The notes below the pieces were generated by a model. It ran no database searches. It saw only the letters and a list, made by a program, of their open reading frames with translations, and was not told the DNA's origin. A stretch of 44,307 nucleotides of DNA, from positions 1 through 44,307 of IMG/VR virus record IMGVR_UViG_3300045988_060455; one strand, written 5' to 3'. Position 1 is the first letter of the stretch. Every line of letters starts with the position of its first letter. A program made the translations under genes and the position numbers. Source of the DNA: a virus. Of the stretch, positions 5,406 through 41,020 are shown piece after piece.

Positions 5406-5478
5406 CAAAAAATCCCCTGCTTTGTCGAAGCCCTGCGTTCCACGCGGGGTACTTTGTAGGCAAAGCGGGGGAGTTTTT
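5406..5478. terminator. Long bidirectional hairpin terminator (serves the minus-strand cassette)
   Basis: tcccctgctttg (5413-5424) pairs with caaagcggggga (5461-5472), with an inner hairpin ccctgcg/cgcgggg. It is flanked by an A-run and a T-run. Confidence 0.75.
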
Positions 5479-9871: not shown

Positions 9872-11008
9872 TCACCCTTGAGCTTTCCTGAATGCAGCGG
9901 TCGTTGCAGCCGCCAAATCTTCACGCTGGCCGTCCAGCTCGTGGCGGTAAACCCCTGCGGTATCCATATTCTTGCTGTGGCCTACCAGCATTTTTAGCTG
10001 GCTGTCAGTCAAGACGCTGGATTCAACGCTGACAAATGTGTGCCGCAGCTCGTAAAGTGAGACTTTCGGCTCAAGCCCGTTTGCTTCCTGATACGATTCC
10101 CAGCGGCGATAGAGCGCGTGCTCTGAGGGAATCTGAAACAGCGGGGTATTGTAGTTTAGCAGTATGCCTTGAGCCTTTAAGAGCTGTACCTGCGCCTCAT
10201 AGGCATCCCGTGCTTCCTTGCCCATGTCAAAAGAGCGGATGGCGTTTTCATTCTTTCCGGTGGTCTGCTCCCGGTGCACGTTGATGCTGCGCCGAAGGTT
10301 GACCGTGTTCCCCTTGATGTCACCATACCAGAGACCAATCAGCTCCCCGGGGCGTAGGCCGGTCGCAACTGCAAAGCGGTAGGCGTAGATATACTCGTCA
10401 AATACCGGCTTTCCATAGTAGGTTCGGGTGTCTACGCTGAACAGGGTCTTCAAGGCGGTGGGCTGCAAGATCGTGCGTTTCCCCATTCTGGCATTCTTCG
10501 GGATAGACAGGTCGGGATGCAGCGTCGTGTACTTGTTCCTTCGGCACCACTTGACAAAGGCGGTTTCCGCAGCCCGGATCGTCATAAGCGTCTTTCGGCT
10601 CAACGGCTGGTTTGAGATGGGCTTGCGCTGGTTCTTTTTCTGTGAGCGCTTCCGGAACGAAACGTCAATGGCCTTTTGAAGATCGCCCTCGGTTAACTCG
10701 TCAATGCGGATATTCCCACAGGTCGGCAGAATATAGCAGTCCCCGTAACGCTGGCATTGTGTCACATAGGACGTCCCGCAAGTCAGCTTCAGCTCTTCCA
10801 CCCACTCTGAATAAAGAACGCTGACCTTCTTTTTTCCGTCTCTGATGCTGTCATCAAGCCATGCATCCGCTTTTGCGTTTGCTTCCCGTTGTCCTGTTCG
10901 GCCCGGCGTGCTGCTGTAAAACCGCTTGCGGGTGCCGTTCTTCTGAACCGCGATGCACCATCGCTTTTCCTTTTCCACCCAAAATGCCGTGTTGACCCGT
11001 TTTTTCAT
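9872..11008 (-). CDS. int: Tyrosine recombinase / phage integrase
   Basis: The track ORF is 9872-11167; ATG 11008 behind GGAGGTGG is preferred. Catalytic pattern: ..ATGLRPGEL.., ..LYELRHTFVS.., ..LVGHS.., ..GVYRH. Confidence 0.9.
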   Translation of the reverse strand: MKKRVNTAFWVEKEKRWCIAVQKNGTRKRFYSSTPGRTGQREANAKADAWLDDSIRDGKKKVSVLYSEWVEELKLTCGTSYVTQCQRYGDCYILPTCGNIRIDELTEGDLQKAIDVSFRKRSQKKNQRKPISNQPLSRKTLMTIRAAETAFVKWCRRNKYTTLHPDLSIPKNARMGKRTILQPTALKTLFSVDTRTYYGKPVFDEYIYAYRFAVATGLRPGELIGLWYGDIKGNTVNLRRSINVHREQTTGKNENAIRSFDMGKEARDAYEAQVQLLKAQGILLNYNTPLFQIPSEHALYRRWESYQEANGLEPKVSLYELRHTFVSVESSVLTDSQLKMLVGHSKNMDTAGVYRHELDGQREDLAAATTAAFRKAQG

Positions 11009-11175
11009 AAAATCCACCTCCATACACAGGGGTACACTGTGCCGCTTCCCTTTGGACGGCGGCGCTTTTTTCTTTGCTGCGGGGCGGCTTCCGGCTGCTT
11101 CTTCCCGCACCACGGACAAAAAGAAGCACCATCCGGGATCTCCTTCCGGCAGCATGGCCTTACGCATTTCATGGC

Positions 11176-12424: not shown

Positions 12425-12994
12425 TCAATATCCCACAGCAGTGGCGCCGTATTCCGCCTGGCTTTGGCTAAATCCCTCAAACTCCAGCTGTTCAATCAGA
12501 CCGGAGCGAGAGAAAGACATGGAATTGATATAATTTTTTGCTCTTATCGCAGCCTGTTCGTCCCAGTCAGCACCACAATGATCTACGGCATAAGTAGCAT
12601 CTTCCGTGGAATATCCTTCATACTCAAGCTGACCTTCAAGGCTGCTGTAAGAGAATCCCATACCAGCACTCAGGTAGTTTTCGGCAGACCGCAAAGCGTT
12701 TCTCTGCCCCATTGTAAGGCTATCCTCGGCAGAAATTGACGATTTTATGGACGTGCTGCTCTTTGTTCCGGACGTTGAACTTGTCGTGCTGGAAGAAGGG
12801 GTAATCATCATAACGAACACGATCAGCGCAACACTAACAGCGACCGCGCATCCGCATCCATGACCTTTTTTCTTCTTTTCAGGCTTTTTGTCTGATTCGA
12901 TAGCTTCTGTCACGGAACCCGAAGCAACAGGTGCTCCACATTCAGGGCAGAATTTCACGTTCTCAATTTCAGCTCCGCATTTTGGACATTTCAT
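12425..12994 (-). CDS. ltp: Ltp-like superinfection-exclusion protein (zinc ribbon, TM helix, two Ltp repeats)
   Basis: Start at ATG 12994 behind GAGGTG. It has MKCPKCGAEI..CPECG, a TM helix (AVAVSVALIVFVMMI) and an S/T linker. Two repeats follow: QRNALRSAENYLS..FSYSSLEGQLEYEGYSTEDATYAVDH and ..AAIRAKNYINSMSFSRSGLIEQLEFEGFSQSQAEYG. Confidence 0.75.
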   Translation of the reverse strand: MKCPKCGAEIENVKFCPECGAPVASGSVTEAIESDKKPEKKKKGHGCGCAVAVSVALIVFVMMITPSSSTTSSTSGTKSSTSIKSSISAEDSLTMGQRNALRSAENYLSAGMGFSYSSLEGQLEYEGYSTEDATYAVDHCGADWDEQAAIRAKNYINSMSFSRSGLIEQLEFEGFSQSQAEYGATAVGY

Positions 12995-13204
12995 AAAACG
13001 CACCTCACATATACAAAAATAGGCAGCCAACCAGCTGCCGAAAAACTAAATTATCAAGGAAAATGCCAAAGGGGGAAAATAAAGTGCAGGAAAATAGCAC
13101 AAAATTGATGAAAGAAACCACAGAATGTGTTATACTTGAGAAAATCAAGCTTGCACTTTCCCTTGGTATCGACGTGGATAAACTCTTAAAGGAGGCAATG
13201 CAAA

Positions 13205-14349: not shown

Positions 14350-14862
14350 GGCGTTGTCAGTTAAAAACGTTAACAAAACACAAAACCCAAGCGGGTCGCA
14401 CCTCCTAAGTTTTTTTACTATGTGTCTGCAACTACATAGTAACACACTTTGTAAACTTTTTCAACTGGTATTTGACACGGCGATAAGAAAAAATCTGCCT
14501 GCGGTTGTTTCACAGACAGACTTTTCACCGATTTGTCACCAGAACGCACTTGCACCCCGGCGGTAATGCAAACATGCGCGTTTGCACGTCTTTCGCGCCA
14601 TGCGCGGCGCAAAAGTAACGCCCGGGCTGCAAAAACAACTTGCAGGGCTATGGGTACGCCGCTTCCTTTGGCGGGTCGGCACCGCCTTGTAAGCCCTAGC
14701 GCTTCACGCACTTGCTCGTGTCTGGAACTGGCTGGCTCAAAAGTTGGGTCAATGAAATCACCTTCCTTTTGAATCAGTTTAACTAGGAGCCTTGAACAGT
14801 ATAGCAAATCGGTGCGCCGCTGTCAATTATGTTTCAACTTACGTTTTAAAGGAGGTGTGAAA

Positions 14863-15066
14863 GTGCCTGAAAAATGGACAGGCCGTTTAGTAGGCCGGAT
14901 GCACAACAATCAGATTACAGTAGACGACGTAGCAAAGCATCTTGGATTTTCGAGAAGCTACTGTTCACTGATTTTGAACAGCAAGCGCAACCCTCCCGGC
15001 ATTCGGGAAAAGATGGAAGCTGCCGTCAGCGAGATCATCAAGGAAAAGGAGGACAAAACGGCATGA
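14863..15066 (+). CDS. Cro-like small HTH protein
   Basis: GTG 14863 behind AAAGGAGG (14848-14855). ..ITVDDVAKHLGFSRSYCSLILNSKRNPP.. Confidence 0.65.
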   Translation: MPEKWTGRLVGRMHNNQITVDDVAKHLGFSRSYCSLILNSKRNPPGIREKMEAAVSEIIKEKEDKTA

Positions 15067-15863
15067 GCGAATTAAGCAATCTCATCCCCATTAGCTACGA
15101 CAACCCGGAGCGCCCCACGGTGAGCGGCCGGGAGCTGCACGAGTTTTTGCAGGTTGGCGCAGATTACCGGCATTGGTTCCCTCGTATGTGTGAGTACGGC
15201 TTTACCGAGGGCGAGGATTTCAACCCGGTCAAAATTGACCGAGTTCAAAATGAGGGCGGGCGCAAGGTCACGCGCACGGTGGACGACCACCAGCTCACCA
15301 TCCCGATGGCGAAGGAGCTGTGCATGATCCAGCGCAACGAGCGTGGCAAGCAGGCCCGGCAATATTTTCTGGCCATTGAAGCCCAGTGGAACAGCCCGGA
15401 GGCGGTCATGCGCCGGGCGGTGCTTATTGCCCAGAGGCAGAACGACCAGCTCAAGGCCGCAAACCGCCAGCTTCTGGCAGAGAACAGCGACCTGAAGCCG
15501 GATGCAGAGTATGCCCGGGCGGTGTGCGTGGGCAAGAACTGCCGGACGGCTACCAGCATTGCAAAGGATTACGGCATGAGCGGCGAGAAGCTGAACAGCA
15601 TTCTGCACGGGCTGAAAATCCAGTGGAAGAACAGCGACGGGCAGTGGGTGTTATACGCAAAGTATAGCGGAAAAGGTTACACCAAAAACCGCAAAGGCCG
15701 TCCGTTTGAGCACAACAGTGGCAATATCACCACGCCAAACACCACCGTTTGGACGGAAGCGGGCCAGCGGTTCATTTATGAGCAGCTCAAGGCCATTGGC
15801 CTGACGCCCAGCATCGACCACAAAGAGAATGTGGAACAGACCACGTTTGAAAGGGGTGCGTAA
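15063..15863 (+). CDS. Antirepressor (AntA/AntB N-domain plus KilA-C domain)
   Basis: ATGA overlap with the preceding stop. ..VSGRELHEFLQVGADYRHWFPRMCEYGFTEGEDF.. and ..TSIAKDYGMSGEKLNSILHGLKIQWK.. Confidence 0.8.
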   Translation: MSELSNLIPISYDNPERPTVSGRELHEFLQVGADYRHWFPRMCEYGFTEGEDFNPVKIDRVQNEGGRKVTRTVDDHQLTIPMAKELCMIQRNERGKQARQYFLAIEAQWNSPEAVMRRAVLIAQRQNDQLKAANRQLLAENSDLKPDAEYARAVCVGKNCRTATSIAKDYGMSGEKLNSILHGLKIQWKNSDGQWVLYAKYSGKGYTKNRKGRPFEHNSGNITTPNTTVWTEAGQRFIYEQLKAIGLTPSIDHKENVEQTTFERGA

Positions 15864-24907: not shown

Positions 24908-25077
24908 TTGGAGAAATTTGGATTCAAGCAAATATGACTGAGAATGGAACTGTTCATCTTTTGGTTGCGCCTGGTATTGCCGATAGAATCAAGGACGTTG
25001 TCGTTTACGAAATCGGTAGCCCTGACGTAAAGGGCAAGTTTGAGGAGGAAAACAATGACCCGCACATGGATACCTGA
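24904..25077 (+). CDS. Small hypothetical protein (57 aa)
   Basis: ATGA overlap with the rusA stop. Below the track cutoff. Confidence 0.4.
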   Translation: MIGEIWIQANMTENGTVHLLVAPGIADRIKDVVVYEIGSPDVKGKFEEENNDPHMDT

Positions 25078-25510
25078 CACCGACACGCCGAGGCCGGACG
25101 GAAACGATTACCTCACCGTTAAGGCGTGGCTGAACCGCTACCGCGAAGCAGAGAAAAGATACTACTTGCTGTCTGACCGTCTGGCCGAAGCACAGGAGGC
25201 CACCCGGCACATCACCCAGAGCCTCAGCGCGGCCCCCGGCGGCAGCAAAGATGGCCAGAGCCTTGCCCGGGCGGTGGAACGCGAGGAGGAAGCGGAGCGC
25301 CGCGCTTATGAGCAAAGAGCGGTCTGCGACAGGCTGTTCCTCGAGATCAGAAACGCGCTCTCCCAGATCCAGAACGAGAAAGCATACACGGTGCTGTACA
25401 AGTACTATCTTGATTGCCTCACGTGGGACAGGGTCGCAAAAGATATGAATTACTCTCTGCGCATGGTCTATGTCTTGCGGCGCAAAGCAATGGAGGAACT
25501 GAGCCTTTAA
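25055..25510 (+). CDS. Late-gene transcriptional activator (sigma-70 region-4-like, RinA/ArpU class)
   Basis: ATG 25055 behind GAGGAGG. C-terminal ..AYTVLYKYYLDCLTWDRVAKDMNYSLRMVYVLRRKAMEEL. It is the last gene before the packaging module. Confidence 0.65.
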   Translation: MTRTWIPDTDTPRPDGNDYLTVKAWLNRYREAEKRYYLLSDRLAEAQEATRHITQSLSAAPGGSKDGQSLARAVEREEEAERRAYEQRAVCDRLFLEIRNALSQIQNEKAYTVLYKYYLDCLTWDRVAKDMNYSLRMVYVLRRKAMEELSL

Positions 25511-25694
25511 AAAAATTGCACTGTCATTACATTGCGGTTTCACTATCGCATGGTGTAAAATTGTATCATCGGAAAAGCCAAAAGGCAAACCGATGCACGC
25601 AGCCTCCGAAACGTGTCCCTTCTTAGCATTTTCCTCCTTTTCTGTTTGCAGGTACTGGGCTTTGCTCTCTTTTCGCGTTTCGCGCTGCTTCTAT

Positions 25695-25768
25695 GCGATA
25701 CACTGACATAAAGGCAGCCTGCCGCTCATGAGAGGAAGGAGACGGTTCGATTCCGCCGTATCGCACCA
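25695..25768 (+). ncRNA. tRNA-shaped module A (non-canonical)
   Basis: A perfect 7-bp acceptor (gcgatac/gtatcgc), T arm gacgg-TTCGATT-ccgcc and an encoded ACCA. The D arm lacks GG. No 5-bp anticodon stem can be drawn around ..gCTCATGa.. Confidence 0.5.
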
Positions 25769-25770
25769 TA

Positions 25771-25882
25771 TGGCGCATGGACCAGACAACCCGAAAGGCC
25801 GCACGTGCAACCTCCCGTGCCAAGAAAAGGCCTTAGAATCCTTGCCAAGGTGTAGCTTTCCTGACAGGATGTGCGCCAACCA
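25771..25882 (+). ncRNA. Structured module B closed by an acceptor-like helix plus ACCA
   Basis: tggcgca (25771-25777) pairs with tgcgcca (25872-25878), followed by A and CCA. The interior has nested helices: aaggcc/ggcctt enclosing gcacg/cgtgc, plus atcct/aggat. Confidence 0.4.
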
Positions 25883-25883
25883 A

Positions 25884-25913
25884 CAGCCCCGGCGGCGAAC
25901 CGGAGCTGTTTTT
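25884..25913 (+). terminator. Hairpin plus T-run inside the RNA locus
   Basis: cagccccgg / ccggagctg (8 of 9 bp) followed by ttttt, immediately before module C. Confidence 0.45.
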
Positions 25914-25917
25914 ATAT

Positions 25918-25988
25918 GGCCGCCTGAGCGCAGTTTGGAGCGCGGCGCGTGTGTGTAGACATGGCTGGTTCGATTCCAAGGGCGGCTC
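25918..25988 (+). ncRNA. tRNA-shaped module C (non-canonical)
   Basis: Acceptor ggccgcc/ggcggct (one G-U pair), D arm gcgc-AGTTTGGA-gcgc and a TTCGATT loop with only a 3-bp stem. The anticodon region gcgcgtgtgtgtagaca does not pair. Confidence 0.4.
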
Positions 25989-25992
25989 TTAT

Positions 25993-26065
25993 ACTCCAGT
26001 AGCTCAAGTGGTAGAGCAGCGGTCTCCAAAACCGCATGTTGCAGGTTCGAGTCCTGCCGGGAGTG
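25993..26065 (+). tRNA. tRNA-Trp (anticodon CCA)
   Basis: A 73-nt cloverleaf: acceptor actccag/cgggagt (one A-G mismatch), D arm gctc-AAGTGGTA-gagc, anticodon arm gcggt-CTCCAAA-accgc, T arm gcagg-TTCGAGT-cctgc. Confidence 0.8.
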
Positions 26066-26187
26066 CTTGCGTGCCCTATGAGGGAGCGGCGCAATAGCGG
26101 GGCATCCGGCCGCGAAAGTTCCGGGTGCAGCAGCGCCCACCGTTTGACGCCTGTCCAACGAACTGAATGCACGGGCGCTGCTTATAT

Positions 26188-26323
26188 GCCGTCATAGCTC
26201 AACTGGAAGAGCGCCGCCCATTTAAGGCGGGACAACGTTGGTGACACCACGGGAACATCACTGCACAGCCAACCACTGCGCACATCCATTCCGTGGGTGC
26301 CGGTTCGAATCCGGTTGGCGGCT
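26188..26323 (+). tRNA. tRNA-Lys(UUU)-like with A33 and a 68-nt variable-region insertion
   Basis: Acceptor gccgtca/tggcggc, D arm gctc-AACTGGAA-gagc, anticodon arm ccgcc-CATTTAA-ggcgg, a 68-nt insert (26231-26298) with the ccacgg/ccgtgg helix, then T arm gccgg-TTCGAAT-ccggt. Confidence 0.55.
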
Positions 26324-26336
26324 AGCGTGATTTTAG

Positions 26337-26358
26337 AGTGTCCACAGTGGACACTTTT
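26337..26358 (+). promoter_or_regulatory. Perfect inverted repeat plus T-run
   Basis: agtgtccac-a-gtggacact followed by ttt. It is either a terminator of the RNA array or a protein-binding site. Confidence 0.45.
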
Positions 26359-26375
26359 GGAGAGGAGGCATACAA

Positions 26376-26603
26376 ATGTTTGAGCGCTTGAAAGAACTGA
26401 TTTGCGACATGGCAAAGTTTTTGACGCGTCTCGGCGCTGGCCTTATCCTCTCAGCCTTACCGATCAGCAACAAAGAAAGCCACTTTGTGCGCTATGCACG
26501 GAGTTTCGGTTTCCGTGCAGACCACACAAAACGCGAGCCTCGGGCAGAGATCGGAGGCCGTGGCTGTATCCAAGGAGCACGGCCTGCTATCCGTGCGGAT
26601 TAA
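26376..26603 (+). CDS. Doubtful small ORF inside the RNA-rich region
   Basis: Strong RBS (GGAGAGGAGG) and ATG. Only the first ~30 aa look protein-like, and the DNA is full of hairpins: gcacgga/tccgtgc, ggccgtg/cacggcc, atccg/cggat. Confidence 0.3.
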   Translation: MFERLKELICDMAKFLTRLGAGLILSALPISNKESHFVRYARSFGFRADHTKREPRAEIGGRGCIQGARPAIRAD

Positions 26604-26625
26604 CCGCTGCTGATACAATACAATT

Positions 26626-26677
26626 AAAAACCAGCTTTTTGCATGATGAGCTCCATGCAGCAAAGCTGGTTTTTCTT
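26626..26677 (+). terminator. Long hairpin terminator preceding tRNA-CAT
   Basis: accagcttt/aaagctggt and tgcatg/catgca stack into one stem, followed by ttttt. Confidence 0.7.
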
Positions 26678-26679
26678 AT

Positions 26680-26753
26680 GCCGCTTTAGCTCAGTCGGCC
26701 AGAGCATCCGGCTCATAACCGGACGTGTGCAGGTTCGAGCCCTGCAAGCGGCA
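26680..26753 (+). tRNA. tRNA with CAT anticodon (Met elongator or Ile2-lysidine type)
   Basis: A 74-nt canonical cloverleaf: gccgctt / D arm gctc-AGTCGGCCA-gagc / tccgg-CTCATAA-ccgga / gcagg-TTCGAGC-cctgc / aagcggc-a. The G1-C72 pair argues against an initiator. Confidence 0.85.
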
Positions 26754-26823
26754 CATTCGATATTTTGACCGTTCGGATTTCCGGGCGGTTTTTCTTTTGC
26801 GTGAGTTTAGAGAGGTGGTGGCG

Positions 26824-27291
26824 GTGAGCGCGAAGCGGCTGACAGACAGACAAAAAAAGAAGATCATTGCTGACTATGTGCAGCTGCAGAGCTACGCCAG
26901 AACCGCAAAGCTGAACGACGTGGCAGAAAGCACCGTGCGGAAAATCGTGAAAGATAATCCCAAGTGCGCGGATTTGTGCGCCTTAAAAAAAGAGCAGAAC
27001 ACGCAGGACATGCTTTCCTACTTAGGAAGCAAGCGCGGGGAAGCACAGGATCTTCTCGGGCTGTACCTTCAGGCGATGGCAGACCCTGACAAGATCGCAG
27101 AGGCAACGCTGCCACAGCTGTCTACGGCGTTCGGCACCATCGTGGATAAGTTTGTTATGCTGGGAGACCAGAGCGGCATAGAAGCCCCGGACGATGGCCT
27201 GCTTGAGGCTCTGAGCGCTGCCGCAGACATCAGCCCGCCGGATGACGTGGAGATGCTGCCGGAGGAAGAGGACGACCATGCGGAAAAGTAA
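26824..27291 (+). CDS. terS: Terminase small subunit
   Basis: GTG 26824 behind GAGAGGTGG; the upstream part of the track ORF overlaps the tRNA. N-terminal HTH-like ..RQKKKIIADYVQLQSYARTAKLNDVAESTVRKIV and an acidic C-terminus. It overlaps terL. Confidence 0.7.
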   Translation: MSAKRLTDRQKKKIIADYVQLQSYARTAKLNDVAESTVRKIVKDNPKCADLCALKKEQNTQDMLSYLGSKRGEAQDLLGLYLQAMADPDKIAEATLPQLSTAFGTIVDKFVMLGDQSGIEAPDDGLLEALSAAADISPPDDVEMLPEEEDDHAEK

Positions 27292-28525
27292 CGGTTTTCG
27301 CTGGAAAGCCCTCAGCCAGCGGCAAAAGATGGTTCTTTGCTGGTGGACACCGCAGAGCACATACAGCGGCTACAACGGAATCATTGCAGATGGCGCTATT
27401 CGCTCGGGCAAGACCTTTGCCATGAGCTTCTCTTTCGTCCAGTGGGCTATGACCTGCTACAGCGGCCAGCAGTTTGCCATGTGCGGCAAGACCATTGCCA
27501 GCTTCCGGCGCAACGTTCTGGGCACACTCAAGCAGCAACTTGCAGCCCGTGGCTACAACGTCAAGGAGCACCGCGCCGAAAACTGCATGACCGTCAGCAA
27601 GGGCGGCAGGGCCAACGAGTTTTACTTTTTCGGCGGCAAGGACGAGAGCAGTCAGGACCTGATCCAGGGCATCACCCTTGCCGGAGCATTCTTCGACGAG
27701 GTGGCCCTGATGCCGCAGAGCTTCGTCAATCAGGCCACGGCCCGCTGCTCTGTCACCGGGTCAAAGTTCTGGTTCAACTGCAACCCGGGCAGCCCACAGC
27801 ACTGGTTTTATCTCGAGTGGGTGCGCAAGTGCCGTTCCCGCAAGATGATGTATCTCCATTTCACGATGGACGACAACCTGTCACTTTCCGAGGACATCAA
27901 GGCCAGATACCGCAGCCAGTACAGCGGCGTTTTCTATCAGCGCTATATTCTGGGCCTGTGGACCGTGGCCGAGGGCCTTGTATATGACATGTTCGACCGC
28001 AAGAAGCACGTTGTTGATGTGCTGCCGCAGCTTTCGCCAAAGAGCGCCTATGTGGCGTGCGACTTTGGCACCCAGAACGCAACGGTTTTTTTGCTGTTCC
28101 AGAAGCGGGCAGATGCAGACTGCTGGATCGTCACCCGGGAGTACTACTACAGCGGCCGGGAACAGAAGCGGCAAAAGACCGTGGGCGAGTACGTCACAGA
28201 CCTCAAGGCGTGGCTGAACGGCATCAAGCCGGAGAGGATCATCGTTGACCCCTCTGCCCTGCCCCTGATTACAGAGCTGCGCAAGAACGGCTTTACCCAG
28301 ACGCCCGCAAACAACGACGTCCTGAGCGGCATTCTGGACGTGCAGACCATGCTGCAGACCGGGCGGTTGAAGATCTACAAAGACTGCAAGCACACGCTGG
28401 AAGAGTTTGGCGTGTACGCTTGGGATCCAGATAAAGACGACACCGTGCTGAAGGTCAACGACCACTGCATGGACGCTATCCGCTACTTCGTGCGCACAAA
28501 GCGCCTTGTGAAACTGAGGGATTGA
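27278..28525 (+). CDS. terL: Terminase large subunit (PBSX/Terminase_3 type)
   Basis: Walker A-like ADGAIRSGKT, ..FFDEVALM.., and the C-terminal nuclease motif ..NDHCMDAIRY. Confidence 0.9.
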   Translation: MRKSNGFRWKALSQRQKMVLCWWTPQSTYSGYNGIIADGAIRSGKTFAMSFSFVQWAMTCYSGQQFAMCGKTIASFRRNVLGTLKQQLAARGYNVKEHRAENCMTVSKGGRANEFYFFGGKDESSQDLIQGITLAGAFFDEVALMPQSFVNQATARCSVTGSKFWFNCNPGSPQHWFYLEWVRKCRSRKMMYLHFTMDDNLSLSEDIKARYRSQYSGVFYQRYILGLWTVAEGLVYDMFDRKKHVVDVLPQLSPKSAYVACDFGTQNATVFLLFQKRADADCWIVTREYYYSGREQKRQKTVGEYVTDLKAWLNGIKPERIIVDPSALPLITELRKNGFTQTPANNDVLSGILDVQTMLQTGRLKIYKDCKHTLEEFGVYAWDPDKDDTVLKVNDHCMDAIRYFVRTKRLVKLRD

Positions 28526-34120: not shown

Positions 34121-34196
34121 GCCGCTTTCGCACAACTGGCAGTGCTCCCGGCTCATAACCGGGTAGTTGCAGGTTCGACCCCTGCAAGCGGCACCA
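34121..34196 (+). tRNA. Second tRNA with CAT anticodon (CCA encoded)
   Basis: gccgctt / D arm gcac-AACTGGCA-gtgc / cccgg-CTCATAA-ccggg / gcagg-TTCGACC-cctgc / aagcggc-a-cca. The acceptor stem and T stem match those of 26680-26753; the D arm and anticodon stem differ. Confidence 0.8.
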
Positions 34197-37601: not shown

Positions 37602-37967
37602 ATGAAGGAAATCATTGATCTGGAAGGCAAGGAGTACCTTGCAAAAACTTATAAGCTGGCAAAGGCATACAAGCAGTGCATCGTTGACACGGGCGCAGTG
37701 GCGGCGGCAACTCAGCCCGCGCCGCTGACTGGCAACGAAACCCCGGAGGAGAAGGCCAAAAAGATTGCAGAACAGGGCGCGAAAAATGCGGAAGAAATGA
37801 TGCGCATGATCTACGAAGAGCACGCAGACATGACCGAAAAGGTCTTGCCGCTCTTTGTGGCGCTGGATGAGGGCGAAGAGCTTCCGCCCACCAGAAAGCT
37901 GGCCGCAGCAATGTCCCGCGCACTGTCTGATGACGATTTCATGGATTTTTTGAGATCCTTGATGTGA
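37602..37967 (+). CDS. Tail assembly chaperone (gpG-like)
   Basis: AAGGAGGA RBS. 121 aa. The slippery heptamer lies 5 codons before its stop. Confidence 0.75.
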   Translation: MKEIIDLEGKEYLAKTYKLAKAYKQCIVDTGAVAAATQPAPLTGNETPEEKAKKIAEQGAKNAEEMMRMIYEEHADMTEKVLPLFVALDEGEELPPTRKLAAAMSRALSDDDFMDFLRSLM

Positions 37968-38287: not shown

Positions 38288-41020
38288 TTGAGCGCCACCC
38301 TCGGGCTGGACGACAGCGCCTACCGCCAGGGCATCCAGAATGTGCAATCCGAGACGAAAAAAACCGTTTCGTCGCTGTCAGGAGAGTACAGCAAGGCCGC
38401 AAAGGCCGTAGTGGAGCTGACCAGACGCTACAACGAGTCGGTGGGCAAGACCGGCAAAGCGTCCTCTGAGACCAAAAATCTCAAGACCATGTTGTCGCAG
38501 GCAGAAGCGCAGCTCAGGGCAACCACGACCGCGCTGAAAGCTGCAAACAACGGAATGGATGGCTTTGCCAGCTCCACGGAGAAAGCGTCCGGCAAATCTC
38601 TGGCCAACGCCATTACACAGGGCACGGTGATGGCGAACGTTTTCTCGAAGCTCGGCTCCGTTGCGCTCAGCGCCGCAGAGGGGTTCATCTCTTCCGGCAT
38701 CGAGTACAACGCCCAGATCGAGAAATACACCACCGGCTTTACCAATATGCTGGGCAGCGCGGAAGCCGCCCAGCAGGTCATGAGCCAGATCCAGGAAGAC
38801 GCGGCAAAAACCCCGTTTGATGTCGAGTCCCTGACAAAGGCGAACCAGTTCCTGATCTCTGCAGGCGAGAACGCTTCCTATGCCCGCAGTACCATCATGG
38901 CACTGGGCGACGCGGTCTCTGCGACCGGCGGCGGCAACGACGAGCTGAACCGCATGTCCCAGAACCTGCAGCAGATCGCCAACACCGGCAAGGCTACAAC
39001 GGCCGATATCAAGCAGTTTGCTTATGCCGGCATCGACGTGTACGGCATTCTGGCCGACTACACAGGCAAGTCCACCGCCGAAGTGCAGAACATGACCATC
39101 AGTTATGATCTGCTGACGCAGGCTTTGCAAGCCGCATCCGAAGAGGGCGGACGTTACTACAACAGCATGGACACCCAGAGCCAGACCATGAATGGCCGCG
39201 TGTCTACCCTGAAGGACAATGTGAAGCAGCTGGCAGGATTGCTGACCGGCGATTTATCCAGCGGCATCGGCGTTGCGATTGGCAAGCTGAATGACATGGT
39301 CGTCGTAGCACAGGAAGCTTATAAGCTTGACGGATGGAGTGGCCTTATCGGGAAAATAACAGGTCTTACCACCGTCATTGACAAGGCCAAATCTTCTGCT
39401 GTTGGCCTGAAAGCTGTCTTTGACGCGCTGAAAAGCGGAGAAATCGGCATTTTCCACGGTGACTGGGACGCTGTCTACCAGAAAGCTTTTAACAACGACT
39501 ACCAAAACAAAAAGGCCGGCAAAAAAGACACAAACTACTGGAAAGAATACGGCGAGCGTCTGAAAAAGCAGTACGGAGTAAAAGAAACCAACAGCAGCTC
39601 CATCGTCACCACAGGTGGTGGCAGCGGCTCTTCCGGCGGCAAAAGATCCGGCTCCTCCGGTTCCAAGTCCACCACCGAAACGGTCATTTCGTCCATCTCC
39701 AGCACGGCTACGACCACCGCACAGAACGCGCTGGGCGCTGTGACCACCAGCATCCAGACCCTCACCGAAAAGGTCAAGGACAGCTCCGGCAAGATCAAAG
39801 ACCGCATCACCGAGACCACCACCACGACCGGCAAGGAGATGGTGAACGGCGTTGCCACGACCTTTAAGCAGGTCGAGACCAAAGTCAACGGCACGGTCAC
39901 AAAGGTCACAAAGACCTATGACGACATGTCAAAAACGCTGCTGGGCACCTTTACCAACGTCTCGGAAACCACCTTTAACGGCATCACCACAAAGGTGCAG
40001 CAGGCAGTGGAAAAGTACGCGGACGGCAGCGAGCATATCAAGAAGACCGTCACAGAGACCGGCCAGCGCATCGGCGAGAACGGCGCGGAGACCTACGAGA
40101 AGATCATCACCTACATCGACGGAATCGAAGATAAGGTGAATGAGACCTCTACGCTCATCGACAAGAGCGTGAATGGCACCCAGAACCGCATTGATAAAAA
40201 TTTAAGCGGCATATCCGAAGAGCTGAATAAGGGAATTTTTGGTCTGGTAAAGAATTTCTTTAATGATGCCCAAAATGGAAACTGGGGAAATCTTGCGCTA
40301 GATTTTGTCAATCTGATCTGGGGCGAAGTGTCTCAGGATCAGCGGGATGCCCTTATGGACTGGGGACACAATGCGCTGAAAGCTATCAATGAGGGCTACT
40401 TCAGCGGCGGCATCGGCAAGGCGCTGGGGTCTATCCAGAGCATCTTCACAAACGGCATTACCGGCAGTGTGGATGGTGCCACTACGTCTGTAAAGGCGTT
40501 CTCTGAGATCGTCAGCGGTCTTGCAGGCTCCGGCGGCGTGGGCGGCACTCTGGGCAGCATTGTGCAGGGCTTTTCCGGCATGGCGGGGAGCATCACCTCT
40601 TCGCTGGGCAGTATCGTGTCTTTTATCATGTCGAACCCCGTCCTTGCCCTGATCCTGGGCGTGGGCGCGGTCGCTGGCGGCATCGGCCTTGCCATGTGGA
40701 TGAACAAAAAGAACGACCAGCAGGCCGTCAGCCACTACCAGAGCCCCTTTGACAAGACCGGCGTGTATGACAGTCTGGGCACCTTCTCCACCCGTGCGGC
40801 CCTGCAGTACCGCGTCACCGGCCAGCAGTCCATCGTTGACCGGCAGACCAGCATTCTGGAACGCATCGAAGGGATGCTGGACGAGCATCTGCCGGACATC
40901 GGCAAGGGTCAGGTGGTCATGGACTCCGGTGAGCTGGTGGGCGTGCTGTCGCCCCGCATGGCGACCAACGTGGATGCACGCATCGGCGTGACGGTGACAC
41001 GGAAAGCGAGGGGTGTGTAA
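38288..41020 (+). CDS. Tail tape measure protein
   Basis: 910 aa with a TP901-type core (..TPFDVESLTKANQFLISAGEN..ATTADIKQFAYAGIDVYGILAD..), an S/G/T linker and Gly-rich TM segments. The start is uncertain (see findings). Confidence 0.85.
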   Translation: MSATLGLDDSAYRQGIQNVQSETKKTVSSLSGEYSKAAKAVVELTRRYNESVGKTGKASSETKNLKTMLSQAEAQLRATTTALKAANNGMDGFASSTEKASGKSLANAITQGTVMANVFSKLGSVALSAAEGFISSGIEYNAQIEKYTTGFTNMLGSAEAAQQVMSQIQEDAAKTPFDVESLTKANQFLISAGENASYARSTIMALGDAVSATGGGNDELNRMSQNLQQIANTGKATTADIKQFAYAGIDVYGILADYTGKSTAEVQNMTISYDLLTQALQAASEEGGRYYNSMDTQSQTMNGRVSTLKDNVKQLAGLLTGDLSSGIGVAIGKLNDMVVVAQEAYKLDGWSGLIGKITGLTTVIDKAKSSAVGLKAVFDALKSGEIGIFHGDWDAVYQKAFNNDYQNKKAGKKDTNYWKEYGERLKKQYGVKETNSSSIVTTGGGSGSSGGKRSGSSGSKSTTETVISSISSTATTTAQNALGAVTTSIQTLTEKVKDSSGKIKDRITETTTTTGKEMVNGVATTFKQVETKVNGTVTKVTKTYDDMSKTLLGTFTNVSETTFNGITTKVQQAVEKYADGSEHIKKTVTETGQRIGENGAETYEKIITYIDGIEDKVNETSTLIDKSVNGTQNRIDKNLSGISEELNKGIFGLVKNFFNDAQNGNWGNLALDFVNLIWGEVSQDQRDALMDWGHNALKAINEGYFSGGIGKALGSIQSIFTNGITGSVDGATTSVKAFSEIVSGLAGSGGVGGTLGSIVQGFSGMAGSITSSLGSIVSFIMSNPVLALILGVGAVAGGIGLAMWMNKKNDQQAVSHYQSPFDKTGVYDSLGTFSTRAALQYRVTGQQSIVDRQTSILERIEGMLDEHLPDIGKGQVVMDSGELVGVLSPRMATNVDARIGVTVTRKARGV

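What the first reader, a model, noticed from the sequence alone, without database searches (positions are those of the whole stretch)
26188..26323. Lys(UUU)-like tRNA with A33 and a 68-nt insertion in the variable region
The acceptor, D arm (with GG), a perfect 5-bp anticodon stem and the T arm are all canonical. Two features are not. The anticodon loop is CATTTAA, so the near-universal U33 is replaced by A. In addition, 68 nt (26231-26298) sit where a 4-5-nt variable loop is expected. The insert forms a ccacgg(g)aa / ttccgtgg helix capped by a C/A-rich 33-nt loop with the direct repeat cactgc(g)caca. Established work shows that phages carry tRNAs with altered anticodon loops that escape host anticodon nucleases, and tRNA-Lys is a classic target (PrrC, PARIS). 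This could be such a decoy or rescue tRNA, or a scaffold for something else.
Basis: partly seen in the sequence, partly recalled or inferred. Interest (0 to 1): 0.65.

Follow-up and report, generated by a model that had tools for sequence, protein, structure and literature searches.

The report
Phage tRNA with giant variable domain
A gut-phage gene encodes a tRNA-shaped RNA that carries an extra, folded 68-base domain and lacks the near-universal U33; it is conserved in hundreds of phage genomes, so it is not a broken gene, and it is more likely a tRNA mimic or nuclease-proof tRNA than an ordinary one.

Summary
Window 26188-26323 (+) scores 44.1 bits on the Rfam tRNA model, with 68 nt (26231-26298) between the anticodon and T stems and the loop CAUUUAA (A33). 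ARAGORN calls tRNA-Lys(UUU) only after the insert is deleted.

It is not a pseudogene. I found 257 copies (151 distinct) in gut phage contigs and metagenomes. All carry a 53-87-nt insert at the same site. The cloverleaf stems show compensatory changes.

The insert is an organised domain:
- a conserved 15-nt linker (G-N-CA(A)C-R-Y-UG-R-Y-GA-Y);
- a closing helix that starts at U48;
- an apical hairpin whose loop pairs with the linker. This 4-bp pseudoknot covaries as UGGU/ACCA, UGAU/AUCA and UGAC/GUCA.

The anticodon loop is non-canonical in 256 of 257 copies: either A33 with UUU, GUU or GCU, or a 6- or 8-nt loop. CAUUUAA survives complete replacement of its stem. N73 varies, about half the copies lack G18G19, and one phage carries a normal tRNA-Lys next to it.

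The gene lies in tRNA clusters, usually between a late-activator gene and the terminase genes.

Function is unproven. My best guess (0.35) is a non-decoding tRNA mimic or decoy for a host factor that targets tRNA. The main rival (0.22) is an "armoured" decoding tRNA.

The parts
26188..26323 (+). Whole tRNA-derived RNA gene (136 nt, positions 1-73 in tRNA numbering plus the insert). No CCA is encoded; N73 = U.
   Evidence: Rfam tRNA model 44.1 bits, model positions 1-71. 257 homologous copies.
26188..26194 (+). Acceptor stem, 5' strand (GCCGUCA). It pairs with 26316-26322.
   Evidence: Pairs 5:68, 6:67 and 7:66 covary (UA/UG/CG; CG/UA; AU/GC).
26197..26212 (+). D arm: GCUC-AACUGGAA-GAGC, with G18G19. 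U8 and A14 are present.
   Evidence: 124 of 257 relatives have a 5-7-nt D loop without GG.
26214..26230 (+). Anticodon arm: CCGCC-CAUUUAA-GGCGG. A33 is at 26220; UUU is at 26221-26223.
   Evidence: The loop is invariant in 185 copies, and also where the stem is GCGGG/CCCGC or GUGGG/CCCAC.
26231..26245 (+). Conserved single-stranded linker GACAACGUUGGUGAC (RNA positions 44-58). Family consensus: G-N-CA(A)C-R-Y-UG-R-Y-GA-Y.
   Evidence: Invariant or near-invariant columns G44, C46, A48, C49, U52, G53, G56, A57 in alignment A1.
26239..26242 (+). Pseudoknot, 5' strand (UGGU, positions 52-55).
   Evidence: Pairs with 26272-26275. Covariation GC/AU at 54:86 and UA/CG at 55:85.
26246..26255 (+). Closing helix of the variable domain, 5' strand (ACCACGGGAA).
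   Evidence: A59-U48 and C60-G47 are invariant family-wide. The rest of the helix has an entirely different sequence in each insert type but stays paired.
26262..26282 (+). Apical hairpin: UGCaCAG - CCAACCA - CUGcGCA.
   Evidence: The stem sequence differs between types (UGCGCA/UGCGCA, GGCA/UGCC, CUGCG/CGCAG, GUCCGG/CCGGAC, CUCGG/CCGAG), while the loop motif is kept.
26272..26275 (+). Pseudoknot, 3' strand (ACCA in the apical loop, positions 85-88).
26289..26298 (+). Closing helix, 3' strand (UUCCGUGGGU). It ends at U48, with a bulged G that may stand in for G46.
26299..26315 (+). T arm: GCCGG-UUCGAAU-CCGGU.
   Evidence: Pair 51:63 covaries CG/UA.
26316..26323 (+). Acceptor stem, 3' strand (UGGCGGC), plus position 73 (U).
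   Evidence: N73 is U in 119, A in 62, G in 3 and C in 1 of the copies with the CAUUUAA loop.
26338..26361 (+). Hairpin GUGUCCACAGUGGACAC followed by UUUU: a terminator-like element 15 nt after the gene.
   Evidence: By a simple criterion, 128 of 252 copies with enough flank have a hairpin plus T-run directly downstream. The consensus terminator scan did not flag this one, which has only 4 U.
25040..25510 (+). Context: DUF1492 / phrog_36 late-transcription activator (Ltr family). It is the conserved upstream neighbour.
   Evidence: Pfam DUF1492 at 5.4e-06; phrog_36 at 1.7e-18. Present upstream in 121 of 142 loci of both subfamilies.
25993..26066 (+). Context: canonical tRNA-Trp(CCA) in the same cluster.
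   Evidence: ARAGORN and Rfam, 63.4 bits.
26680..26754 (+). Context: canonical tRNA-Met(CAU) downstream, followed by an intrinsic terminator at 26767-26790.

Best explanation
**Shown**
- The locus encodes a member of a conserved family of phage RNAs.
- Each is a complete L-shape-compatible tRNA body. Its variable region has been expanded into a 53-87-nt domain: a conserved linker, a closing helix and an apical hairpin whose loop pairs back to the linker.
- The anticodon loop is almost always non-canonical.

**Inferred**
- The RNA is made and processed like a tRNA. It shares a UAU leader with its neighbours, sits in tRNA clusters, and has a terminator just downstream.
- It does not work as an ordinary decoder. 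It acts as a tRNA mimic that presents an ANN-type anticodon stem-loop (Lys-, Asn- or Ser-like) to a host protein that normally engages that loop.
- The most likely partner is a tRNA-targeting defence nuclease or toxin.
- A33, or a shortened loop, would make the mimic uncleavable and undecodable.
- The bulky variable domain would add affinity or stability, or keep the RNA off the ribosome.
- The mimic would therefore soak up or block the host factor while canonical tRNAs keep translation going. These could be host tRNAs or the phage's own Trp, Met and sometimes Lys tRNAs.
For: **1. The tRNA fold is under selection.**
- 98.7% of cells are paired, and 11 pairs have changes on both sides. No shuffle out of 500 reaches these values.
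- The result is the same on 150 distinct sequences.

**2. The loop is constrained but not canonical.**
- 256 of 257 copies have A33 or a 6/8-nt loop.
- CAUUUAA is unchanged in 185 copies. These include lineages whose anticodon stem was fully replaced, from CCGCC/GGCGG to GCGGG/CCCGC.
- Among the 7-nt loops that carry A33, changes are confined to positions 32, 34 and 35.

**3. Features expected of a charged decoder are relaxed.**
- N73 is U, A, G or C within one anticodon class, and no CCA is encoded.
- G18G19 is missing in 124 of 257 copies.
- One clade keeps a U5·U68 mismatch.

**4. A33 and the insert are coupled.** IMG/VR holds no copy of this A33 arm without the insert, and no U33 version with it.

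**5. Redundancy.** Phage contig L209 encodes a canonical, CCA-ending tRNA-Lys(UUU) about 80 nt after the mimic.

**6. Company.**
- Two further non-canonical tRNA-like elements are conserved in the same leader: X in at least 132 loci and Y in at least 32.
- In other phages the gene sits inside ordinary tRNA arrays.

**7. Established knowledge.**
- tRNA-Lys(UUU) and tRNA-Met are cleaved by PrrC, PARIS AriB and bacterial Schlafen.
- Phages counter this with variant tRNAs (PMC11464382, PMC13056530, PMC10264068).
Against: - No partner protein was found in the window or in related loci.
- The seven literature searches I ran turned up no RNA decoy of a tRNA nuclease (for example).
- The 7-nt loops keep exactly what real ANN decoders have (U36, A37, A38), and one relative (L251) has a fully canonical UUGCUAA loop. 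A decoding role is therefore not excluded.
- No known anticodon nuclease targets several of the loop types (GCU, UGC-like, GCG-like).
- The ribosome tolerates long engineered variable arms (abstract of PMC7590224), so size alone does not prove exclusion.
- Nothing here shows that the RNA is expressed or stable.
Confidence: 0.35

Rival explanations
1. Armoured decoding tRNA. The RNA is aminoacylated and reads AAA/AAG (in relatives AAY or AGY). A33 and the bulky variable domain make it resistant to host nucleases that cut the anticodon loop or arm, so late phage proteins can still be made.
For: - All nucleotides needed for the tRNA core are kept: U8, A14, A21, the A15-U48 pair, G53-C61, UUCRANY.
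- The 7-nt loops are those of ANN decoders apart from position 33. Changes are limited to positions 34, 35 and 32, as in anticodon switching.
- One relative has a canonical U33 loop (L251).
- The gene lies among canonical tRNAs and, in the temperate phages, in the late-gene leader.
- With the insert removed, ARAGORN calls tRNA-Lys.
- Engineered tRNAs with aptamer hairpins remain active in translation (abstract of PMC7590224).
- There is precedent in the T5 tRNA-Lys variant that escapes PARIS (PMC11464382).
Against: - U33 is nearly universal in elongator tRNAs, and A33 is fixed here.
- 42 copies in several lineages have 6- or 8-nt loops yet keep the rest of the structure.
- N73 is not conserved and is mostly U, not the A73 (Lys) or G73 (Asn, Ser) of bacterial identity sets. 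That identity rule is from my own knowledge.
- G18G19 is lost in about half the copies.
- A canonical tRNA-Lys is co-encoded in L209.
Confidence: 0.22
2. Cis-acting or processing element of the late transcript. tRNA-like structures in the leader between the Ltr activator gene and the terminase genes serve as RNase P/RNase Z cleavage marks, stabilisers or read-through elements for the late operon.
For: - The position is conserved: 350-700 nt downstream of the Ltr gene in 121 of 142 loci, although the terminase modules differ.
- Acceptor/T-arm-only elements X and Y lie in the same leader.
- A terminator-like hairpin follows the gene in about half the copies.
- A Faecalibacterium prophage has the same leader.
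Against: - That prophage (L183) has the leader but lacks the element, so it is dispensable for late transcription.
- In L177/L258 and L265 the RNA sits in ordinary tRNA arrays with no Ltr gene nearby.
- A processing mark would not need an invariant anticodon loop or a pseudoknotted domain.
Confidence: 0.1
3. Ribosome-excluded aminoacyl donor. The RNA is charged through its anticodon but kept out of translation, and it feeds an aminoacyl-tRNA-dependent transferase. Precedents are Fem-type cell-wall enzymes, MprF and phage Mu Mom.
For: - The anticodon nucleotides are conserved, while features needed for decoding (U33, G18G19) are relaxed.
- A phage enzyme that uses charged tRNA exists: Mom with Gly-tRNA (PMC13219725).
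- Non-proteinogenic tRNA-Gly species of staphylococci also lack GG (from my own knowledge).
Against: - No candidate transferase was found in the window. The ORFs scanned are ordinary temperate-siphovirus genes or have no family match.
- N73 is variable.
- The 6-nt loops would probably not be recognised by anticodon-reading synthetases.
Confidence: 0.07
4. Self-assembling RNA. The 4-bp linker/apical-loop pairing forms between molecules rather than within one, giving rings or chains of tRNA-shaped units. Precedents are phi29 pRNA and the multimeric phage-associated ROOL/GOLLD RNAs; this comparison is from my own knowledge.
For: - Covariation proves the pairing but cannot tell cis from trans.
- In cis, the apical hairpin must fold back about 180 degrees onto the base of its own closing helix.
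- The gene lies next to the packaging genes.
Against: - There is no similarity to pRNA, ROOL or GOLLD (no Rfam hit at E up to 10).
- Terminase-type phages need no packaging RNA.
- The pairing is only 4 bp.
Confidence: 0.05
5. Intron-containing pre-tRNA. The insert is excised to give a 73-nt tRNA.
For: - The position of the insert is constant and its ends are conserved.
- Deleting it yields a sequence that ARAGORN accepts.
Against: - It is too short for a group I or group II intron, and it matches no Rfam intron or ribozyme family.
- The junctions lie in a single-stranded linker and inside a continuous helix, not in a bulge-helix-bulge motif.
- I know of no bacterial machinery for variable-loop introns.
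- A33 and the 6-nt loops would remain after splicing.
- No insert-less copy exists in IMG/VR.
Confidence: 0.04
6. Decaying tRNA pseudogene carrying a chance insertion.
For: - ARAGORN does not call it.
- Degenerate tRNA-like sequences lie nearby.
Against: - There are 257 copies in phages whose adjacent Ltr proteins share only 17-53% identity.
- Compensatory changes occur in all stems and in the pseudoknot.
- The loop is invariant.
Confidence: 0.02

Closest known systems
Class II tRNAs (Ser, Leu, bacterial Tyr, Sec) and allo-tRNAs with long variable arms
   Same: An extra helix emerges from the variable region of an otherwise normal cloverleaf, next to the T stem. Allo-tRNAs likewise combine a long arm with unexpected anticodons (PMC5389517, PMC7609411).
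   Different: - Natural arms are a simple hairpin of up to roughly 20-25 nt that starts 1-2 nt after position 45 (from my own knowledge).
- Here there is a 15-nt conserved linker, a 10-bp closing helix, internal loops, a second hairpin and a pseudoknot, 53-87 nt in all.
- The D arm is class I-like (4-bp stem).
- N73 is mostly U, not G.
- The acceptor/T branch is 7/5, not 8/4 or 9/3.
Phage tRNAs with anticodon-loop or stem substitutions that escape host tRNA nucleases (T5 tRNA-Lys versus PARIS; van den Berg et al. 2023)
   Same: It is phage-encoded, it is Lys(UUU)-type, the anticodon stem-loop is altered, and it is clustered with other tRNAs (PMC11464382, PMC10264068).
   Different: - Those tRNAs are canonical in size and, to my knowledge, keep U33 and a 7-nt loop and are used in translation.
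- None has an expanded variable domain.
- Here the loop is A33 or 6/8 nt, and decoding is doubtful.
Engineered aptamer-tagged tRNAs (Mukai 2020, PMC7590224)
   Same: An added structured hairpin on a tRNA body that has a long variable arm.
   Different: - Those are synthetic, built on allo-tRNA chassis with small hairpin aptamers, and keep a canonical anticodon loop.
- This one is natural, much larger and pseudoknotted.
tRNA-like domains of tmRNA, bacterial Y RNA (YrlA) and viral tRNA-like structures
   Same: They are tRNA mimicry used for something other than plain decoding. YrlA-type RNAs also occur in phages (from my own knowledge).
   Different: - Those lack a true anticodon arm or D arm.
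- In them the tRNA-like part is one module of a larger RNA.
- Here the full cloverleaf is intact and the addition sits inside it.
- There is no significant Rfam match to tmRNA or YrlA. The only YrlA match is 18.1 bits against a gathering score of 69, and it lies elsewhere, at 26033-26088.
phi29 pRNA
   Same: A phage RNA of about 120-170 nt with a covarying 4-bp loop interaction, encoded near packaging functions (from my own knowledge).
   Different: It has no tRNA fold and no sequence or model similarity. It belongs to protein-primed podoviruses, whereas these phages have TerS/TerL.

Membership tests
Canonical elongator tRNA (Rfam RF00005) | Cloverleaf with 7-bp acceptor, 4-bp D stem, 5-bp anticodon stem and 5-bp T stem, scoring above the gathering threshold | tested here: met
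   44.1 bits against 29, model positions 1-71. All stems covary.
Canonical elongator tRNA (Rfam RF00005) | 7-nt anticodon loop with U33 | tested here: not met
   A33 in the window. 256 of 257 relatives have A33 or a 6/8-nt loop.
Canonical elongator tRNA (Rfam RF00005) | Variable region of 4-5 nt (class I) or a simple arm of up to about 25 nt (class II) | tested here: not met
   68 nt in the window; 53-87 nt in the family.
Canonical elongator tRNA (Rfam RF00005) | G18G19 / T-loop elbow nucleotides | tested here: inconclusive
   Present in the window (AACUGGAA) but absent in 124 of 257 relatives. The T loop is always canonical.
Canonical elongator tRNA (Rfam RF00005) | Aminoacylation and use on the ribosome | not testable with these tools
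   Indirect evidence only: N73 is variable (U119/A62/G3/C1) and no CCA is encoded.
Class II tRNA (Ser/Leu/Tyr/Sec) | Variable arm is a plain stem-loop starting directly after positions 44-45; G73 for Ser | tested here: not met
   A 15-nt linker precedes the helix, there is a pseudoknot, and N73 = U.
Intron-containing tRNA (bacterial group I; archaeal bulge-helix-bulge) | A group I catalytic core, or a bulge-helix-bulge motif at the exon-intron junctions; in bacteria the intron lies in the anticodon loop | tested here: not met
   No Rfam intron or ribozyme hit at E up to 10. The insert is in the variable region, and its junctions lie in a linker and in a continuous helix.
Nuclease-evading phage tRNAs (T5 tRNA-Lys type) | Phage-encoded tRNA of a targeted isoacceptor with substitutions in the anticodon stem-loop | tested here: met
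   The window is a temperate siphovirus-like phage genome with terminase, portal, integrase and Ltr genes. The loop is UUU with A33.
Nuclease-evading phage tRNAs (T5 tRNA-Lys type) | Remains a functional decoder and resists cleavage by a defined host nuclease | not testable with these tools
   The host nuclease is unknown. The 6/8-nt loops and the co-encoded canonical tRNA-Lys argue against simple substitution.
tmRNA / YrlA / viral tRNA-like structures | tRNA-like acceptor/T module without a genuine anticodon arm, joined to family-specific modules | tested here: not met
   A full anticodon arm is present. No tmRNA was found, and there is no Rfam match over the locus.
phi29-type packaging RNA | pRNA secondary structure with intermolecular R/L loop pairing; phi29-like phage | tested here: not met
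   No Rfam hit. The phage has TerL and portal genes of Firmicutes siphovirus type. Whether the 4-bp pairing acts in cis or in trans cannot be tested here.

The most novel reading that the evidence does not exclude
These phages deploy a previously unrecognised class of RNA: a complete tRNA body deliberately disabled for decoding (A33 or a shortened loop) and fitted with a pseudoknotted variable domain. It would act as a pseudosubstrate decoy or inhibitor of host tRNA-targeting immunity, or of another enzyme that binds the anticodon loop. Its loop sequence would switch (Lys-, Asn-, Ser-, Ala- or Arg-like) as the targets change. It would form part of a small 'tRNA-mimic island' together with the elements X and Y.
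Probability: 0.35. Interest if true: 0.9.

Novelty: new variant of a known kind. Interest (0 to 1): 0.78.

Why it matters
tRNA architecture is among the most conserved in biology. A natural, widespread family (at least 257 copies in human-gut phage sequence) that doubles the size of a tRNA through a structured variable domain, and almost always alters the anticodon loop, extends what a tRNA scaffold is known to tolerate or be used for.

If it is a decoy or an armoured tRNA, it adds a new RNA-based tactic to the phage-host conflict over tRNAs (PrrC, RloC, PARIS, retron/PtuAB, Septu, Schlafen, Cas13a). It also points to undiscovered tRNA-targeting defences in Faecalibacterium-like gut Firmicutes.

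If it decodes, it is the largest natural variable arm I am aware of. It would be a natural precedent for tagging tRNAs with functional RNA modules.

Standard tRNA finders miss it, so phage tRNA censuses undercount such genes.

Tried and rejected
1. **Known ribozyme, riboswitch or intron in the insert.** An Rfam search at E up to 10 over 25700-26900 gave nothing over the insert. The CUGAUGA/UGAUGA in some linkers looked like a hammerhead core or a C box. However, there is no GAAA or helix III in the right place, no second GA strand for a k-turn, and the motif is UGGUGA in the window.

2. **Helper tRNA for the tail-chaperone -1 frameshift.** The window's slippery site is U UUU UUG at 37946 (Phe/Leu), not a Lys or Asn codon.

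3. **Antisense 'kissing' regulator.** The complement of the loop (TTAAATG) occurs nowhere else in the window, although 4.2 copies are expected by chance. It is also absent within 2.5 kb in 130 loci.

4. **Pairing between the anticodon loop and the insert.** UUGAA in type C inserts and UUAAC in types B and E could pair with the loop, but type A (the window) has no such sequence.

5. **T-box-like capture of a CCA end by linker UGGU.** The covariation to UGAU/AUCA and UGAC/GUCA shows that the partner is the apical loop, not a CCA end.

6. **Local mini-hairpins in the linker.** CAAC/GUUG, A48-U55/C49-G54, and UGGU-GAC-ACCA are not conserved in subfamily 2.

7. **Nonsense-suppressor reading of the loop** (UUA or CUA at positions 35-37). 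All 7- and 8-nt loops end in YUAA. The reading would need a 3+3+1 loop geometry, though, and the window's genes show no in-frame stops.

8. **A phage-encoded partner** (nuclease, ligase, synthetase or transferase). PHROGs and Pfam scans of 35 ORFs found only ordinary temperate-phage functions.

9. **Prophage copies in 185,579 representative genomes.** The linker pattern gave 0 hits. A search with an Ltr protein gave four loci, including a Faecalibacterium MAG. That locus has the leader but not the RNA, and none of the four has any tRNA hit.

10. **A profile search with the Ltr alignment** failed, because it has no conserved stretch to search with.

11. **Literature.** Seven full-text searches were run; one further attempt failed on a syntax error. 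None found a description of such tRNAs.
Full report
**1. The observation**

The window looks like a complete temperate siphovirus-type genome of a Firmicutes host, 54% G+C.
- It has an integrase at 9872-11167 (-), an anti-repressor, Sak4, Gam, RusA, TerL at 27242-28525, a portal gene and tail genes.
- Its TerL is closest to those of Streptococcus and Clostridium phages, at 53-57% identity.

At 26188-26323 (+) the Rfam tRNA model matches end to end at 44.1 bits, against a gathering score of 29. One insertion lies between the anticodon stem and the T stem. Reading the sequence gives:
- acceptor GCCGUCA/UGGCGGC;
- D arm GCUC-AACUGGAA-GAGC;
- anticodon arm CCGCC-CAUUUAA-GGCGG, with A33 at 26220;
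- 68 nt at 26231-26298;
- T arm GCCGG-UUCGAAU-CCGGU;
- N73 = U, with no CCA.

ARAGORN misses the gene. It calls tRNA-Lys(ttt) when nt 46-108 are removed. Thermodynamic stability is not exceptional: z = -2.1 for the whole RNA and +0.4 for the insert alone. The case therefore rests on comparative evidence.

**2. A large, conserved family**

Pattern scans returned 257 loci that carry a homologue, with 151 distinct sequences. The sources are:
- 174 IMG/VR contigs;
- 81 metagenome contigs, those named by origin coming from human gut;
- GenBank MT839005.1;
- the window itself.

Every copy has an insert at the same place. Inserts are 53-87 nt long, most often 68 nt.

There are two main subfamilies:
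- SF1 (the window's): acceptor GCCGUCA, a D loop with GG, and linker GACAACGYUGGUGAC.
- SF2: acceptor GCCGUUG, a 5-7-nt D loop without GG, and linker GUCAACAYUGAUGAU or GUCACAUUGACGAU.

At least eight insert types differ completely in the sequence of their internal helices.

A few members have quite different tRNA bodies but the same linker (L177/L258, L251, L265).

The adjacent Ltr proteins of these phages share only 17-53% identity. The RNA is thus far better conserved than its genomic surroundings.

The counts are biased by the patterns I used and by one very large sample (3300045988). Cross-type comparisons carry the weight of the argument.

**3. Structure**

On a 38-sequence MAFFT alignment (A1) I scored the cloverleaf, two closing pairs and a 4-bp pseudoknot together.
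- 98.7% of cells are paired, and 11 pairs have changes on both sides.
- No shuffle out of 500 reaches the observed values.
- All slid controls collapse to 21-49% paired.

The result holds on 150 distinct sequences. For example:
- 6:67 is CG in 87, UA in 48 and UG in 14;
- 7:66 is AU in 97, GC in 42 and GU in 11;
- 51:63 is UA in 74, CG in 61 and UG in 11;
- the anticodon stem is CCGCC/GGCGG, GCGGG/CCCGC, CUAGA/UCUAG, GCCUC/GGGGU or GUGUC/GGCAC.

The variable domain has a common plan:
- G44.
- A conserved linker (N45, C46, A47, A48, C49, R, Y, U52, G53, R54, Y55, G56, A57, Y58).
- A closing helix that begins with the invariant pairs A59-U48 and C60-G47 and a bulged G.
- Internal loops or a junction.
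- An apical hairpin.

The apical loop always contains a tetranucleotide complementary to linker positions 52-55:
- UGGU/ACCA in SF1;
- UGAU/AUCA in SF2 types D and F;
- UGAC/GUCA in L177, L187 and L209;
- GAC/GUC (or GACG/UGUC) in type C.

The pair counts are:
- 53:87, GC in 146;
- 54:86, GC in 96 and AU in 51;
- 55:85, UA in 112 and CG in 32;
- 52:88, UA in 119 and U·C in 26.

This is good evidence for a pseudoknot, or for the same pairing between molecules.

Two natural variants show how the repeat behaves. L059 has a slippage deletion of the hairpin. L054 has the 3' internal loop converted into a perfect extension of the hairpin.

**4. The anticodon loop**

Loop types among the 257 copies are:

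| Loop | Copies |
|---|---|
| CAUUUAA | 185 |
| GUUGCA | 26 |
| UUUGCA | 13 |
| CAGUUAA | 13 |
| UAGCUAA | 8 |
| GAGUUAA | 6 |
| UGGUCUAA | 2 |
| CAGCGA | 1 |
| UUGCUAA | 1 |

L248 has an aberrant arm. One further copy parsed as CAUUUAAG.

Only UUGCUAA (L251) is a canonical loop.
- The other 7-nt loops are exactly those of ANN decoders (Lys UUU, Asn GUU, Ser GCU, each with U36, A37 and A38), but with A33.
- The 6-nt loops look like Ala-UGC or Arg-type loops that lack position 38.

CAUUUAA never varies. Point mutations do occur in its stem (12 copies), and the stem has been completely replaced in one clade. The loop, including A33, is therefore under strong constraint.

IMG/VR holds no copy of this A33 arm without the insert, and no U33 version with it.

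N73 is U in 119, A in 62, G in 3 and C in 1 of the CAUUUAA class, and it changes together with the downstream flank.

**5. Context**

In the temperate phages the gene lies 350-700 nt downstream of a DUF1492/phrog_36 late activator. This activator belongs to the Ltr superfamily of Quiles-Puchalt et al. 2013 (PMC3753634). It is present in 121 of 142 loci, while the downstream terminase modules differ.

The gene shares a UAU leader with its neighbours in 244 of 257 copies. In about half the copies it is followed within about 15 nt by a hairpin plus U-run.

The window's cluster reads, in order:
- Ltr gene;
- tRNA-like Y (25694-25767);
- tRNA-like X (25917-25988);
- tRNA-Trp;
- a structured 121-nt spacer;
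- this RNA;
- a hairpin;
- a 75-codon ORF;
- tRNA-Met;
- a terminator;
- the putative TerS gene and TerL.

Other relevant contexts:
- A Faecalibacterium MAG prophage has a 78%-identical Ltr protein and the same leader, but no tRNA-like gene. This points to the host clade and shows that the element is accessory.
- In L177/L258 (a 70-91-kb phage with 17 tRNAs, including a CUA suppressor) and in L265, the RNA sits inside ordinary tRNA arrays.
- In L209 a canonical, CCA-ending tRNA-Lys(UUU) follows it and X.

**6. Interpretation**

*Shown:* this is a selected, structured, tRNA-derived RNA with an organised variable domain and a constrained but non-canonical anticodon loop, encoded in phage tRNA clusters.

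*Inferred:* it is processed like a tRNA.

The balance of evidence argues against plain decoding:
- the loop is non-canonical in 256 of 257 copies;
- lineages with 6/8-nt loops persist and diversify;
- N73 is unconstrained;
- G18G19 is often absent;
- one clade keeps a U5·U68 mismatch;
- a normal tRNA-Lys is co-encoded in L209.

Several observations point to a protein that reads anticodon stem-loops:
- the loop is strongly conserved within clades;
- between clades it switches at positions 32, 34 and 35;
- the gene sits with tRNA-Trp, tRNA-Met and tRNA-Lys, tRNAs of the kinds that defence nucleases deplete (PMC11464382, PMC13056530, PMC10264068).

I therefore favour a non-decoding mimic or decoy (0.35) over an armoured decoder (0.22). 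The other readings follow:
- late-leader processing element, 0.10;
- ribosome-excluded aminoacyl donor, 0.07;
- self-assembling RNA, 0.05;
- intron, 0.04;
- pseudogene, 0.02.

The remainder is unknown. None of these is demonstrated.

**7. Comparison and novelty**

It passes the Rfam tRNA threshold but fails two defining features of elongator tRNAs: U33 in a 7-nt loop, and the size of the variable region. It is not a class II tRNA, an intron-bearing tRNA, or a tmRNA-, YrlA- or pRNA-like RNA (see the membership table).

The closest functional analogy is the nuclease-evading phage tRNAs. To my knowledge, however, those are canonical in architecture.

The seven full-text literature searches I ran found no description of such an RNA (for example). 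Only one unannotated GenBank contig carries it.

I rate it a new variant of a known kind (tRNA), with a substantial chance that it represents a new functional class.

Noticed in passing
window 25917-25988 (+); homologues in at least 132 related loci (e.g. L148, L188, L209): tRNA-like element X. It has a 7-bp acceptor (G1·U72), a D arm GCGC-AGUUUGGA-GCGC, a 5-bp anticodon-like stem that covaries (CGUGU/ACACG, CAUGU/ACAUG, CGUGG/CCACG), a conserved 6-nt loop GUGUAG/GAGUAG, a weak T stem and a canonical T loop. It lies either about 270 nt upstream or 135-370 nt downstream of the insert-tRNA. Its only match is a weak Rfam tRNA-Sec hit (17.6 bits).
   Followed up: partly
window 25694-25767 (+); related elements in at least 32 loci (e.g. 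L188, L196, L046): tRNA-like element Y. It has a perfect 7-bp acceptor (GCGAUAC/GUAUCGC), a T arm, and an encoded ACCA 3' end, but no recognisable D or anticodon arms. Some relatives (L188, L256) have G3·U70 with A73, the alanine identity pair. The same 15-nt leader GCGCUGCUU(C/A)UAUGC precedes both Y and the insert-tRNA (repeat D5).
   Followed up: partly
window 26067-26187 (+): The 121-nt spacer between tRNA-Trp and the insert-tRNA folds into three hairpins (-52 kcal/mol, z = -1.8). It is conserved at the DNA level in most SF1 loci, where it produced spurious conserved ORF clusters. It may be another structured RNA.
   Followed up: no
window 5411-5474 (+): DUF3800-VIII RNA motif (Rfam RF03075, 80.3 bits), in the region between the tail-fibre gene and the lysogeny genes.
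   Followed up: no
window 14489-14711 (-): FuFi-1 RNA (Rfam RF02986, 68.3 bits), just upstream of and antisense to the anti-repressor (Ant) gene at 14874-15863.
   Followed up: no
window 37946-37952 (+): Slippery heptamer U UUU UUG at the end of the tail-assembly-chaperone ORF. An in-phase -1 extension runs up to the tape-measure gene (38288-41020). This is the classic G/GT programmed frameshift.
   Followed up: partly
window 34121-34196 (+): A second tRNA-Met(CAU) gene sits alone among the structural genes. It has the same acceptor stem (GCCGCUU/AAGCGGC) and the same T arm as the copy at 26680-26754.
   Followed up: no
L002 9160-9075 (- strand) and L183 3425-3510: Directly after the Ltr stop codon there are three to four direct repeats of CGCACUGUUU(U/C)GCACUGUUU, which are probably Ltr-binding boxes. 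A terminator-like hairpin follows, then a leader of about 250 nt that is conserved between a phage contig and a Faecalibacterium MAG prophage.
   Followed up: partly
L258 3899-3991 (same phage as L177): This 70-91-kb phage encodes 17 tRNAs, including a 93-nt CUA (amber-suppressor) tRNA that ARAGORN labels tRNA-Pyl, so its TAG codon may be recoded. The 8-nt loop of its insert-tRNA (UGGUCUAA) shares UCUAA with the suppressor's loop.
   Followed up: no
L209 4114-4189: A canonical tRNA-Lys(UUU) with encoded CCA lies immediately after the insert-tRNA and element X, where other phages have tRNA-Trp.
   Followed up: yes
window 26767-26790 and many loci (e.g. L015, L032): In the window, the terminator GACCGUUCGGAUUUCCGGGCGGUUUUUCUUUU follows tRNA-Met. 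In many relatives the same terminator follows the insert-tRNA directly. The window therefore appears to have gained the 75-codon ORF (26376-26603) and tRNA-Met as an insertion.
   Followed up: partly
window 12425-13030 (-): An Ltp-type surface lipoprotein (Pfam PF07553, two repeats) lies next to the repressor-like HTH gene. Proteins of this kind mediate superinfection exclusion in Firmicutes phages.
   Followed up: no
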